62,297 nt of DNA, taken from the NCBI RefSeq assembly GCF_024298765.1, contig NZ_CP101213.1; one strand, given 5' to 3'. The position numbers are program-made. The stretch's first letter is position 1. Every line of letters starts with the position of its first letter. This document shows positions 1 through 3,000 of this stretch, in pieces. The DNA comes from Escherichia coli. Its GTDB lineage: Bacteria > Pseudomonadota > Gammaproteobacteria > Enterobacterales > Enterobacteriaceae.

Positions 1-3000
1 GTGCAGCTTGCTGTGATTAGCAAACGTCACTGGTCTGAACTATCACCGGAAGAGCAGGTCCGTTTCTGGCAGGACTACGAAGCGGGAATTGAAAGCTCAT
101 TCCTGGTCCCCCAGGAAAACAAAGGCGGAACAACAAAACGTCGCCGGGGTGAACATTCCACTAAGCCAAAGTGTGAGAATCCAGCCTGGTTCCGTCCCGA
201 CAGCTATAAGGCGCTGGGCGGACAGTTGGGCCACGCTTACAATCGTCTCGTTAAAAAAGACCCGGTAACTGGTCAGTACACACTCAGAATGCACATGTCG
301 TTGCATCCATTTTATGTGCTGAAACGTCAGAGTGTCGGTCGCAAATATAAGTTCCGACCGGAAAAACAGCGGCTGCTCGACGCAATATGGGTTGTACTTG
401 TGAGTTTTTGTGATCGTGGATTGCACACTGTCGGCATGTCTGTCTCCCGCCTGGCAGAAGAAATAAGTCCAAAAGACAGTAAGGGAAACGTTATTCCTGA
501 AACCGCAGTCACAGTATCGCGCCTTTCCCGTCTGCTGGCAGAGCAGGTTTGCTTTGGCACGTTGGGAACGTCAGAAAAGACGATATGGGATCGTGAATCC
601 CGCCAGCGACTGCCGAAATACGTCTGGATCACCGAAACTGGCTGGAAAATGCTGGGAGTTGATCTGGTGAAACTTCAGGAACAGCAACGTAAACGCCTTG
701 CAGAAAGTGAAATCCGTCTGCAACTGATTAAAGAAGGCGTTATCCGCGAGGGCGAGGAAATCTCTGTTCACTCGGCTCGTAAACGCTGGTATGCGCAGCG
801 TTCTCTCGATGCCATCAAGTTCCGACGAGAGAAAGCAGCAAAGCGCAAACGTGCCAATCGCCTTGCAAAACTGCCGTATGATGAACAGCGAAACGAAATT
901 GCACGGTTTATTCTGAAACGTATGCCGCCGGACGAAGCGTACTGGTGCACTAAAGAAAGATTAGAGCAACTGGTAGCCAGGGATCTACGTCAGCTTGAAC
1001 TGGCCCTGACAGCTTCGCCACCCCACTAGTTTAGCTGCCTGATACAATCGGCACTCTCTTCAGCCCCTTCGGGGCTTTTCGTGTTGCCTGCATTTCATGA
1101 AATTCCTCATTTTTGACGACCGTTTTTCATTTTGTCCCGCTCTGACAGTTTTTTGATGGCCACAATCGGGTATCGGAGCTAAACCGCCTTCGGTTATTAA
1201 CAAAAACCCGCAAACGAATAACTTCAGAAAGCAGCAAACGTAGAAGATCAAACCCGCAATATATTCTTAACCCCTGTTCTTTAATCCCCTGCGTTGCTTC
1301 GCCGCAGGGAAAATATTTATCTTTGAAACAACTGTGGATAATTACAAAAATGCCTTCGCTTGCAGCGGCTAACGCCGCGCCGCTCAGAATATAAAAGTAC
1401 CTCCCACCGCTTCGCGGCGGGCATATGGACTTCTGCCTAATGAAAAACAAAGCCCCTCCAACCCTCCTACAAAAAAACGCTGCAAATACTCAGCCACAGC
1501 GCCCAACCCATCACTGAAAAGCGCCGCCGCCCCCGCCCGAAGGGCGGGAACAACATCGCTTTCAATAATGGATGTTGTAACTAAGAAATTACATGGCTGT
1601 CAGTCTTCTGGCTGGAAGTACCAAGTACACGCTCGTAAGCGGTCCTGGCGGCCCGCTAACGCGGAGATACGCCCCGACTGCGGGTAAACCCTTGTCGGGA
1701 CCACTCCGACCGCGCACAAAAGCTATTTCATGGCTGAAAGCGGGTATGGCTTAGCAGGATGGGGATAGGTAAGGTGAAACCTATCAATCAGTACCGGCTT
1801 ACGCCGGGCTTCGGCGGTTTTACTCCAGTATCATATGTAACAACGGAGTGCCGCCTTCCATGCCGCTGGCGCGGCATCAAAAAAGAAAGCCCCCCAATGA
1901 CGGGGGAAATAGCGTTTTGATCAAAATAATAATGCTAGTGTGCTTCTTGCGTGCCATTCCAGGCACAAACTAAATTTAACGTTTCGTTAACTACAAAGAA
2001 ATCCGATGAGTTAATCACTTGCGAAATAAAAATCATATAGTAAATTACTATATGATTTTGCGTTGTTTCGGAGAATTAAAAAATGCCTTTGATTGAATAC
2101 ATCAACAAGTTCTATCGGGGGAATCAGGCATCGTTCGCCAGGCTGACCGGAGTTCAACCTGCGCAGGTAACACAGTGGATCAACAAAGGATTCATCGTGG
2201 TGAATCACACACTGTATAGTCCACGCCGAAAGCTGGGAATTTAATTCCTGGTCAATATTTGACATCCTCCACGCCCTGAAGGACGGGGATATAAGGCGCA
2301 CTGTATCCTGTTGTCTGGCAGAAAAAAGAAAGCCCCGTAGTTAATTTTTCATTAACCCACGAGGCGATCCCAATACTTCAACAACACCAGGATAGACTTT
2401 TACCGCCCTTTACGCAATACCATGTATTTTCAAGTTTCTGGTCGATATATAATGTTGTTGGCGCTTGAGGCTTTCTGCCTCATGGCGAAAAGGTGGTTTG
2501 TATCTTGTTGTGCGGCAGAAAGAAGAAAGCCCCGTAGTTAATTTTTCATTAACCCACGAGGCGATCCCAATGCTTGAACAACATCAGGATAGCCTCTTAC
2601 CGCGCGTTACGCAAGGAGAAGAAGGCCATGAAACAGCCGAAAAACGCCCTGACCTGGTGTTTATTAATCGTGTGCTGCACATTGTTAATATTCACGTATC
2701 TGACCCGGAATCGTTTGTGCGAGGTCCGGCTGAAAGACGGAGACAGGGAGGTTACGGCAAGTCTGGCTTACGAATCCAACGGTAAGTAGCAACCCGGAGG
2801 CGGGCGAAAGCCCGCCTTTTTGGGGATGATGTGGTTCTGGCATTAAGCGCCTTTACAAAGGGGGTATTCTGTACGGATACCCCCTTTTTCCATGTATTTT
2901 CAGGATATTAACTGGTGAATATGGTATAATTAGTCAATATGACAGCAATTATTGAGGCGAGTATGCAGCCCAAAAAAACACCCGTGATTGTGGTCAAAAA

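What the first reader, a model, noticed from the sequence alone, without database searches (positions are those of the whole stretch)
2032..2244. Unannotated small HTH gene with a palindromic operator that recurs 8 kb away
A 53-aa Cro/YdaS-like HTH ORF (2083-2244) is missing from the ORF track. It is preceded by a perfect 25-bp palindrome (2032-2056). A near-identical palindrome at 10137-10161 sits next to a TGTAAAG site and upstream of the acidic gene at 10263. This suggests one small repressor controlling two distant promoters, one beside the replicon/hok locus and one in the leading region.
Basis: seen in the sequence. Interest (0 to 1): 0.5.

Follow-up and report, generated by a model that had tools for sequence, protein, structure and literature searches.

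The report
Solo Aca5-type repressor with two operators
The small gene is a real member of the known Aca5 family (repressors that normally switch off anti-CRISPR genes), sitting alone behind its own palindromic operator on an mcr-1 IncI2 plasmid; a second copy of that operator in the part of the plasmid that enters a new cell first may be a second target, but this is untested.

Summary
ORF 2083-2244 and both palindromes are present, and no other copy occurs in the window.

The window is an mcr-1 IncI2 plasmid. The 53-aa protein is RefSeq WP_001128311.1. This exact sequence is listed among Aca5 (anti-CRISPR-associated 5) homologues in Pinilla-Redondo 2020. The gene is under strong purifying selection (dN/dS 0.01-0.05).

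The core palindrome ATATAGT-N5-ACTATAT precedes subclade homologues of this gene in at least ten unrelated contexts. These include a different replicon, the ends of P2-like prophages, and operons carrying an AcrIF11-family gene. It has the same 5-bp-spaced geometry as the published, experimentally validated Aca5 operator, but a different sequence.

Site 1 is therefore almost certainly the gene's own operator. Here the gene is "solo": no anti-CRISPR gene lies between operator and gene.

Site 2 (10137-10161) is specific to IncI2 and is the best-conserved stretch of its intergenic region. It lies between a 147-aa membrane-protein gene and hicAB.

Trans-regulation at site 2 is plausible, but its target is unresolved. 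Two natural plasmids carry a disrupted aca5. This is a known kind of system with a modestly new lead.

The parts
2029..2059 (.). Operator O1. A 31-bp palindrome with core ATATAGT-AAATT-ACTATAT at 2035-2053. It contains -10-like hexamers TATAGT (2036-2041) and TATGAT (2051-2056).
   Evidence: The same core lies upstream of subclade homologues in unrelated contexts. The homology block shared with a different replicon starts at 2031.
2083..2244 (+). Solo aca5-family gene. It encodes a 53-aa HTH protein, WP_001128311.1, pI 10.6.
   Evidence: listed as an Aca5 homologue; 46% identity to the reference Aca5; dN/dS 0.01-0.05. AF2 model with three helices and a beta-hairpin, pLDDT 87.5. PHROG 10103.
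10137..10161 (.). Putative second operator O2. Same 10-bp arms as O1, spacer AAAAC. The core ATATAGTAAAACACTATAT is the reverse complement of the operator in the L040 and L043 operons.
   Evidence: Only 2 of 25 columns vary across five IncI2 plasmids.
10102..10130 (-). Predicted sigma-70 promoter TTGACA-17-CATTAT, reading toward the 147-aa gene. O2 lies just upstream of its -35 hexamer.
   Evidence: 10 of 12 consensus positions. Consensus match only.
10118..10146 (+). Predicted sigma-70 promoter TTAAAA-17-TATAGT, reading toward hicB'. Its -10 hexamer is the left arm of O2.
   Evidence: 9 of 12 consensus positions. Consensus match only.
9579..10022 (-). 147-aa predicted membrane protein gene. 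This is the neighbour of O2 that is kept in all IncI2 plasmids examined. It has distant relatives in IncI1 (yafA) and IncF plasmids.
10263..10562 (+). hicB' remnant. It keeps only the N-terminal HicB-like domain (99 aa, acidic). hicA and the C-terminal DNA-binding domain are lost in this lineage.
10053..10100 (+). TGTAAAG operator cassette, copy 5 of 7, flanking O2 on the left. It belongs to a separate regulon.
10179..10226 (+). TGTAAAG operator cassette, copy 6 of 7, flanking O2 on the right.

Best explanation
ORF 2083-2244 encodes a solo member of the Aca5 family of small HTH repressors. Acting as a dimer (inferred), it binds the palindrome 2029-2059, whose core is ATATAGT-N5-ACTATAT. That palindrome overlaps the gene's own promoter elements, so the protein limits its own synthesis, as Aca proteins do at acr-aca promoters.

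Palindrome plus gene (2031-2246) form a compact mobile module. Here it carries no anti-CRISPR cargo.

The same protein most likely also binds the second palindrome at 10137-10161 in the leading region. That site lies between back-to-back predicted promoters for the 147-aa membrane-protein gene and for hicAB/hicB'.

In a newly entered recipient no repressor is present, so this promoter region would be free until the protein accumulates (inferred).

Shown: the gene is real, it belongs to the Aca5 family, and operator and gene are associated. Inferred: binding, dimerisation, repression, any effect at site 2, and which gene is the target.

My probabilities:
- site 1 is an autoregulatory operator: about 0.85
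- site 2 is a functional operator: about 0.55
- site 2 controls the 10263 gene specifically: about 0.2
For: 1. Family. The exact sequence is in the Aca5 homologue table of PMC7648647. BLASTP to the reference Aca5 WP_039494319.1 gives 46% identity over 39 aa, E 4e-12.

2. Real gene. Against L012 there are 28 nucleotide differences but only 3 amino-acid differences. dN/dS is 0.014-0.045 against L012, L013 and L014.

3. Operator travels with the gene.
- Homology with the IncK2/Z-typed plasmid starts at the palindrome (2031) and ends at the stop codon (2246).
- The same core precedes homologues at the ends of Pectobacterium, Salmonella and Klebsiella prophages at about the same distance from the start codon.
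- In operon contexts the core moves to the promoter of the first gene. These are L042, with an AcrIF11-family gene at 100.9 bits against a cut-off of 50; L040; L043; and L022. By my reading of those sequences it sits in a TTTACA-17-TACTAT promoter.

4. Precedent. The published Aca5 operator ATAATCAATTTTTGATTATA lies between -35 and -10. Aca5 represses its promoter in E. coli, and scrambling the predicted inverted repeats abolished repression in most of the families tested. L002 and L003 carry that canonical operator in front of AcrIF11-aca5 operons. The window's operator has the same arm-spacer geometry.

5. Site 2. The 10-bp arms are identical and none is expected by chance. It is present in all IncI2 lineages examined. 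It varies at 2 of 25 columns, against 76 of 215 in the intergenic flanks (Fisher p=0.006). It overlaps or abuts two predicted promoters.
Against: - There are no expression or binding data.
- No confident sigma-70 promoter was found at site 1.
- Site 2 is not significantly better conserved than its left flank alone (p=0.10). Only about three IncI2 lineages are sampled.
- The lineages of p75-02_2 and pDMC1097 carry an arm change (TATGAT to TATTAT) with no change in the protein.
- No other element has a remote second operator. The L012 plasmid, the prophage contigs, and the 21-24 kb loci fetched around the canonical Aca5 operons of L002 and L003 each show sites only at the aca5 promoter.
- aca5 is naturally disrupted in pEA7_3 (deletion of O1 and the start codon, plus an insertion at the 3' end, where an IS-type TnpB gene lies) and in pCA-26 (IS91 inserted in the gene). 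Site 2 is intact in pEA7_3; it was not examined in pCA-26.
- hicAB in other IncI2 plasmids has what looks by eye like its own consensus-type promoter, away from site 2.
Confidence: 0.6

Rival explanations
1. Site 1 is the aca5 operator, but site 2 is a functionless relic or recombination scar. For example, it could be what remains of a former acr-aca5 operon in the leading region whose genes were replaced by hicAB. The aca5 module beside repA would then be an 'empty' anti-CRISPR locus that regulates only itself.
For: - The palindrome-plus-gene module is mobile and is often found without cargo.
- No other element shows a remote second site.
- aca5 can be lost while site 2 remains, as in pEA7_3.
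- IncI2 backbones are closely related, so retention alone is weak evidence. Against the left flank alone, p=0.10.
Against: - Site 2 is the least variable stretch of a region whose right flank is only 53-56% identical between lineages.
- Its core half-sites are untouched in every lineage examined.
- No trace of an aca5 coding sequence lies next to it.
Confidence: 0.25
2. The solo Aca5 acts mainly between elements, as an 'anti-anti-CRISPR' or competitor. It would repress operator-bearing acr-aca5 promoters of incoming phages or plasmids. Conversely, resident prophage Aca5 proteins with the same recognition helix would silence the IncI2 sites. This reading can coexist with the best explanation.
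For: - Solitary Aca homologues have been proposed to play this role (PMC9410906).
- Prophage homologues at 83-87% identity share the QPAQVTQW recognition region and the same operator core.
- Operons carrying this operator and acr-type cargo exist in phages and plasmids.
Against: This is purely inferential. It does not explain why a second operator is kept inside the plasmid's own leading region.
Confidence: 0.3
3. The palindromes are not protein operators of this gene. They would be hairpins acting as transcription terminators, as single-strand DNA signals during transfer, or as sites for another plasmid DNA-binding protein.
For: - Both sites fold into stable hairpins: -17.4 and -12.0 kcal/mol, with z-scores of -5.4 and -3.9.
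- Site 1 is followed by TTTT.
- The plasmid encodes other DNA-binding proteins: an RHH protein at 3553-3837, HicB, and an MqsA-like HTH at 7304-7546.
Against: - Any palindrome folds, and these stems are AT-rich with only two G-C pairs.
- The T-run is absent in the prophage contexts, while the arms are conserved there.
- Those prophages lack the other IncI2 proteins, yet the palindrome always accompanies the aca5 homologue.
- No Rfam family covers either site.
Confidence: 0.07

Closest known systems
Aca5 (anti-CRISPR-associated protein 5; reference WP_039494319.1 of Pectobacterium; Marino 2018, Pinilla-Redondo 2020, Shehreen 2022)
   Same: - Homologous small single-domain HTH protein; this exact protein appears in the published Aca5 homologue list.
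- An inverted-repeat operator with 5-bp-spaced half-sites sits at its own promoter.
- Close subclade relatives lie downstream of AcrIF11-family and other small cargo genes.
- The host range matches: Escherichia, Salmonella, Klebsiella, Pectobacterium and Serratia.
   Different: - No acr gene lies between operator and gene, so it is solo.
- The operator sequence is ATATAGT-N5-ACTATAT, not the published ATAATCA-N5-TGATTAT. The published motif is absent from the window.
- The arms are longer here (10-15 bp).
- A second operator lies 8.1 kb away in the plasmid's leading region.
Aca1 and Aca2 autorepressors of acr operons (Stanley 2019; Birkholz 2019)
   Same: The logic is the same: a strong early promoter is shut off by the HTH protein encoded in the same unit, through inverted repeats in the promoter. 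This is cited from PMC9410906 and from my own knowledge.
   Different: They belong to unrelated HTH families and always regulate a linked acr gene. No remote operators have been described for them, to my knowledge.
Lambda Cro / YdaS (Pfam PF15943)
   Same: Small size. The predicted fold is helix-turn-helix followed by a beta-hairpin. The palindromic operator has about 17 core base pairs.
   Different: The Pfam score is 17.1 against a cut-off of 30. Foldseek matches to the Cro proteins have E about 0.8-1.1. There is no lysis-lysogeny switch context.
ArdK-type repressors of leading-region genes in IncN/IncW plasmids (from my own knowledge, not tested here)
   Same: The concept is the same: a small plasmid repressor keeps leading-region promoters silent in established cells and lets them fire on entry into a new cell.
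   Different: No sequence relationship was tested. Those repressors control known anti-restriction genes, whereas no anti-defence gene was recognised next to site 2.

Membership tests
Aca5 | Sequence homology to the reference Aca5 (WP_039494319.1) or its PSI-BLAST/HMM family | tested here: met
   BLASTP gives 46% identity over 39 aa, E 4e-12. The identical sequence WP_001128311.1 is listed in Suppl. Data 9, 'Aca5', of PMC7648647. It is 49-51% identical to L002 and L003 proteins that are listed as Aca5 in PMC9410906.
Aca5 | Small single-domain helix-turn-helix protein (about 50-70 aa) | tested here: met
   53 aa. The AF2 model has pLDDT 87.5 with helices 3-11, 15-22 and 26-34 and a beta-hairpin. 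There are weak HTH-family hits.
Aca5 | Encoded immediately downstream of one or more acr genes in the same operon | tested here: not met
   Only 26 bp separate the palindrome from the ATG, with no ORF in between. No known Acr family was found among the leading-region proteins. The feature is met by subclade relatives L042 (AcrIF11-family), L040, L043 and L022. Solo homologues are common for Aca families.
Aca5 | Inverted-repeat operator in the promoter of its own transcription unit | tested here: met
   The palindrome at 2029-2059 is conserved upstream of homologues in at least 10 contexts and moves to the promoter of the first gene in operons.
Aca5 | Published consensus operator ATAatCaa-N3-TtGatTAT | tested here: not met
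   The window has no TAATCA-N5-TGATTA site with 1 mismatch or fewer, and its 2-mismatch hits are within chance. This subclade uses ATATAGT-N5-ACTATAT with the same geometry.
Aca5 | Represses its cognate promoter by binding the inverted repeat | not testable with these tools
   Shown for the P. parmentieri Aca5 in an E. coli reporter assay. Not tested for this protein.
Cro/YdaS (PF15943) | Score at or above the Pfam gathering threshold | tested here: not met
   17.1 bits against a cut-off of 30, E 0.0047.
Cro/YdaS (PF15943) | Cro-like fold | tested here: inconclusive
   Lambda Cro (2ovg) and Pfl6 Cro (2pij) appear among full-length Foldseek matches, but with E about 0.8-1.1. No match reaches E of 0.001 or better. 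The profile search against PDB finds P22 Cro at E 0.72.
Type II toxin-antitoxin HTH antitoxin | Adjacent co-transcribed toxin gene | tested here: not met
   There is no partner ORF. The homology block ends at the stop codon, and sok/hok (a type I system) follows as a separate unit.

The most novel reading that the evidence does not exclude
On the globally spread mcr-1 IncI2 plasmids, an anti-CRISPR-associated repressor has been uncoupled from any anti-CRISPR gene. It would serve instead as a trans-acting timer for a leading-region promoter 8 kb away, controlling the 147-aa membrane-protein gene and/or hicAB. That promoter would fire on entry into a naive cell and then be shut off. It could also be silenced in advance by resident prophages that encode the same-specificity Aca5.
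Probability: 0.3. Interest if true: 0.6.

Novelty: new member of a known kind. Interest (0 to 1): 0.38.

Why it matters
IncI2 plasmids are a main vehicle of mcr-1, and their regulation is poorly known. A study of pHNSHP45 regulators listed only three putative regulators and did not include this gene.

Placing the gene in the Aca5 family has three consequences:
- It gives the gene a testable function.
- It defines a second operator specificity within Aca5. The ATATAGT-N5-ACTATAT motif could be used to find acr-type cargo, as in L040, L042 and L043.
- It raises a testable possibility: a solo Aca may control a plasmid's establishment genes, and prophage and plasmid copies may cross-regulate.

If site 2 turns out to be inert, this is simply an empty acr-aca5 locus, which is ordinary.

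Tried and rejected
- Whole-collection scan of genome contigs for TCATATAGT-N5-ACTATATGA. The 8 hits were all in unrelated taxa and look like chance; none was in Enterobacterales.
- The same pattern in viral contigs. Of 7 loci, 3 lay next to aca5 homologues with a single site each, and 4 were unrelated.
- BLAST of the palindrome against sequenced phages gave only chance hits.
- Co-variation between site 2 and the protein. This was impossible because aca5 and site 1 are identical in all IncI2 plasmids examined.
- Search for a decayed aca5 next to site 2. Similarity beyond the palindrome is not significant.
- Search for remote extra operators in the loci fetched from canonical Aca5 plasmids found none.
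- Promoter assignment. The consensus scan found no sigma-70 promoter at site 1. My by-eye candidates (TTGCGA-16-TAAATT, or a -10 of TATGAT) are not conserved across contexts, so I do not claim a start site.
- Structure comparison. Foldseek against PDB gave no significant match for this 53-residue model. The profile search against PDB found no solved relative.
- Literature. No paper mentions WP_001128311, an IncI2 aca gene, or IncI2 leading-region promoters.
- NCBIfam found no known Acr family among the IncI2 leading-region proteins.
- I considered that the palindrome might be bound by the plasmid's RHH or MqsA-like proteins. I rejected this because the palindrome accompanies aca5 in prophages that lack those proteins.
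Full report
**What the window is.** The window matches mcr-1 IncI2 plasmids of about 60 kb over the regions I queried: 100% identity over 1700-2600 and 10023-10262 to plasmids such as pPK8241-MCR1 and pMCR-H9. Their annotation gives the following map.
- repA is at 1-1029, and sok/hok at 2459-2789 (Rfam sok at 98 bits).
- The ProQ/FinO gene pcnR is at 2939-3535.
- An RHH gene plus a ParA-like gene lie at 3553-4576 on the minus strand.
- A run of plus-strand small genes with repeats occupies 4.6-10.6 kb.
- A traK/L/M-like leader operon is at 11.6-13.5 kb on the minus strand.
- oriT is at about 13.5-13.85 kb, followed by the mobilisation and relaxase genes at 13858-18491.

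By analogy with IncP and IncI1 plasmids (my own knowledge), the DNA to the left of oriT enters the recipient first. On that reading, both site 2 (10.1 kb) and the HTH gene (2.1 kb) lie in the early-entering half.

**The observation.** ORF 2083-2244 (53 aa, ATG start, GGAG 8 nt upstream) exists.
- Site 1, 2032-2056, is ATCATATAGTAA-A-TTACTATATGAT. The symmetry extends to 2029-2059.
- Site 2, 10137-10161, has the same 10-bp arms around the spacer AAAAC.
- Shuffles give no such matches, and there is no third copy in the window.
- The flanks of the two sites are unrelated.
- TGTAAAG palindromes flank site 2.
- The 10263 product is acidic.
- The ORF is annotated in many RefSeq records as WP_001128311.1 and omitted in others.

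**The ORF is a real gene.** An IncK2/Z-typed plasmid (L012) carries a homologue that differs at 28 of 162 nucleotides but only 3 of 53 residues. Pectobacterium homologues differ at 37-39 nucleotides and 8-9 residues. dN/dS is 0.014-0.045, with synonymous sites near saturation. AlphaFold gives a confident model (pLDDT 87.5) of three helices followed by a beta-hairpin.

**Which family.** Pfam gives only a sub-threshold YdaS hit, and PHROGs assigns it to an unknown-function family. The decisive lead came from distant homologues at 49-51% identity on Serratia and E. coli plasmids (L002, L003).
- There the HTH gene follows a 155-aa gene.
- NCBIfam calls the 155-aa gene of L002 (the one scanned) an AcrIF11-family anti-CRISPR ADP-ribosyltransferase: 126.7 bits against a cut-off of 50.
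- The literature then settled the matter. Supplementary Data 9 ('Aca5') of Pinilla-Redondo et al. 2020 (PMC7648647) lists WP_001128311.1 with exactly this sequence.
- BLASTP to the reference Aca5 gives 46% identity, E 4e-12.
- The L002 protein, and near-identical relatives of the L003 protein, are listed as Aca5 in Shehreen et al. 2022.

**The palindrome is the operator of this Aca5 subclade.** Shehreen et al. report three things:
- the Aca5 motif ATAATCAATTTTTGATTATA lies between the -35 and -10 of acr-aca5 promoters;
- a second copy lies upstream of the -35 in 6 of 15 promoters;
- a P. parmentieri Aca5 represses its promoter in E. coli, and scrambling the predicted inverted repeats abolished repression in most of the families tested.

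L002 and L003 carry that motif. The window's subclade carries a different sequence with the same geometry: ATATAGT-N5-ACTATAT. The evidence that this sequence belongs to the gene is as follows.
- Homology between the window and L012 is confined to 1509-1877 and to 2031-2246. The second block runs from the palindrome's edge to the stop codon.
- Homologues at 83-87% identity sit at the ends of P2/HP1-like prophages in Pectobacterium, Salmonella, Klebsiella and a metagenome. They lie beside different chromosomal genes, and each has the same core palindrome about 26 bp before the ATG.
- Where the homologue is the last gene of a small operon, the palindrome moves to the promoter of the first gene, where I read a TTTACA-17-TACTAT promoter in the sequence. 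A half-site copy overlaps the -35, which mirrors the published IR1/IR2 layout. These cases are:
  - L042, an AcrIF11-family gene at 100.9 bits plus aca5;
  - L040, three small genes plus aca5 on a plasmid;
  - L043, two genes plus aca5 in a phage;
  - L022, a 92-aa gene plus aca5.

**What is special here.** The IncI2 gene is solo: only 26 bp separate operator and start codon. The solo copies also have longer arms, 10-15 bp against 7 bp in the operons. I could not assign a promoter with confidence. The scan finds none at site 1, and my by-eye candidates are not conserved across contexts. I state only that -10-like hexamers (TATAGT, TATGAT) lie inside the palindrome.

**Site 2.** It lies in the 240-bp gap between a minus-strand 147-aa predicted membrane-protein gene and a plus-strand gene.
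- In most IncI2 plasmids the plus-strand genes are hicA-hicB. By eye, they have their own consensus-like promoter (TTGCTT-17-TATAAT) about 110 bp to the right of the palindrome.
- In the window lineage hicA is gone. The 10263 ORF is 86% identical to residues 1-95 of that 145-aa HicB, so it is a remnant lacking the DNA-binding domain. PGAP marks it as a pseudogene.
- The scan predicts back-to-back promoters. One is TTGACA-17-CATTAT on the minus strand, with the palindrome just upstream of its -35. The other is TTAAAA-17-TATAGT on the plus strand, whose -10 is the palindrome's left arm.
- Across five IncI2 plasmids the palindrome varies at 2 of 25 columns. The left intergenic flank varies at 27 of 114, the right flank at 49 of 101, and the 147-aa CDS at 91 of 444. 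Fisher's test gives p=0.006 against both intergenic flanks and p=0.10 against the left flank alone.
- The two changes are one in the spacer and one in the outer arm. They occur in p75-02_2 and pDMC1097, whose aca5 and site 1 are unchanged. The 7-bp core half-sites are untouched everywhere.

**Limits on the two-target model.**
- No other element examined has a remote second operator.
- aca5 is dispensable in at least two natural plasmids. In E. albertii pEA7_3 a roughly 70-bp deletion removes site 1 and the start codon, and an insertion has replaced the 3' end next to an IS-type TnpB gene, yet site 2 is intact. In C. braakii pCA-26 an IS91 element splits the gene; site 2 was not examined there.
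- The region around site 2 also carries three copies of another operator, CTTTACAnTGTAAAG. It is therefore probably under a second, independent control.

**Verdict.** The gene belongs to a known, catalogued family, Aca5. It shows the expected autoregulatory palindrome in a variant specificity class, and it has no anti-CRISPR cargo. Regulation of a second, distant promoter is a reasonable but untested inference, and the proposed target gene is a decayed hicB. I score this as a new member of a known kind with moderate interest. Its value lies in the operator motif as a search handle, and in the testable idea that a solo Aca controls a leading-region promoter on mcr-1 plasmids.

Noticed in passing
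window 3865-10648 (48-nt cassettes at 4577, 4622, 7571, 8695, 10053, 10179, 10598): The palindrome CTTTACAnTGTAAAG occurs 11 times against 0.26 expected, all within 3.9-10.6 kb. The sites are organised as seven same-orientation 48-nt cassettes, each holding two palindromes 25 bp apart. They lie upstream of the ParA-like and RHH genes and at leading-region promoters. This looks like the regulon or centromere of a global plasmid regulator. The 94-aa RHH protein (3553-3837) and HicB are my guesses for the binding protein.
   Followed up: partly
window 4721-5169, 5632-5899, 7673-8121, 8773-8814: Three to four copies of a 220-300-nt GC-rich repeat (93-100% identical) each precede a plus-strand leading-region gene (5165, 5895, 8117, 8899). 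They may be single-strand promoter or priming (Frpo/ssi-like) elements. The ORFs called inside them are probably spurious.
   Followed up: no
window 2293-2417 and 2490-2614: A 125-nt segment of the sok/hok leader region is duplicated (88% identity) immediately downstream of the aca5 stop codon. Only the second copy falls within the Rfam sok match (2459-2630).
   Followed up: no
window 10263-10562, compared with L005 1797-2441: The hicAB locus of pHNSHP45-type IncI2 plasmids is degraded in this lineage. hicA is absent and hicB is truncated to its N-terminal 95 residues. A different, intact hicA-hicB pair sits at 8899-9491.
   Followed up: yes
L040 5105-5629 (Salmonella plasmid contig AAIAKK010000018.1): A 174-aa protein with sub-threshold similarity to the type I-E Cas protein Cse2/CasB (25 bits against a cut-off of 28.5; Pfam CRISPR_Cse2, weak) is encoded in a three-gene operon that ends in an aca5 homologue and carries the ATATAGT-type operator. 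It could be a Cas-derived anti-CRISPR candidate.
   Followed up: no
L013-L021, L045, L046 (ends of Pectobacterium, Salmonella and Klebsiella prophages): Solo aca5 with its palindrome sits as the last gene at the tail-fibre end of related P2/HP1-like prophages, next to the host junction. These prophages are inserted at several different chromosomal sites. The arrangement looks like an 'empty' acr locus.
   Followed up: partly
L022 9726-11103 and L023: In a lambdoid Pectobacterium prophage, a 92-aa unknown gene, aca5 and a 296-aa tyrosine-recombinase-like gene form a small island next to the Q antiterminator gene on one side and an unannotated gene followed by the lysis genes on the other.
   Followed up: no
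window 9579-10022: The 147-aa predicted membrane protein next to site 2 has 25-27%-identical relatives on about 1,600 IncI1 and IncF plasmids. They are annotated yafA or lie next to traR. Function unknown.
   Followed up: no
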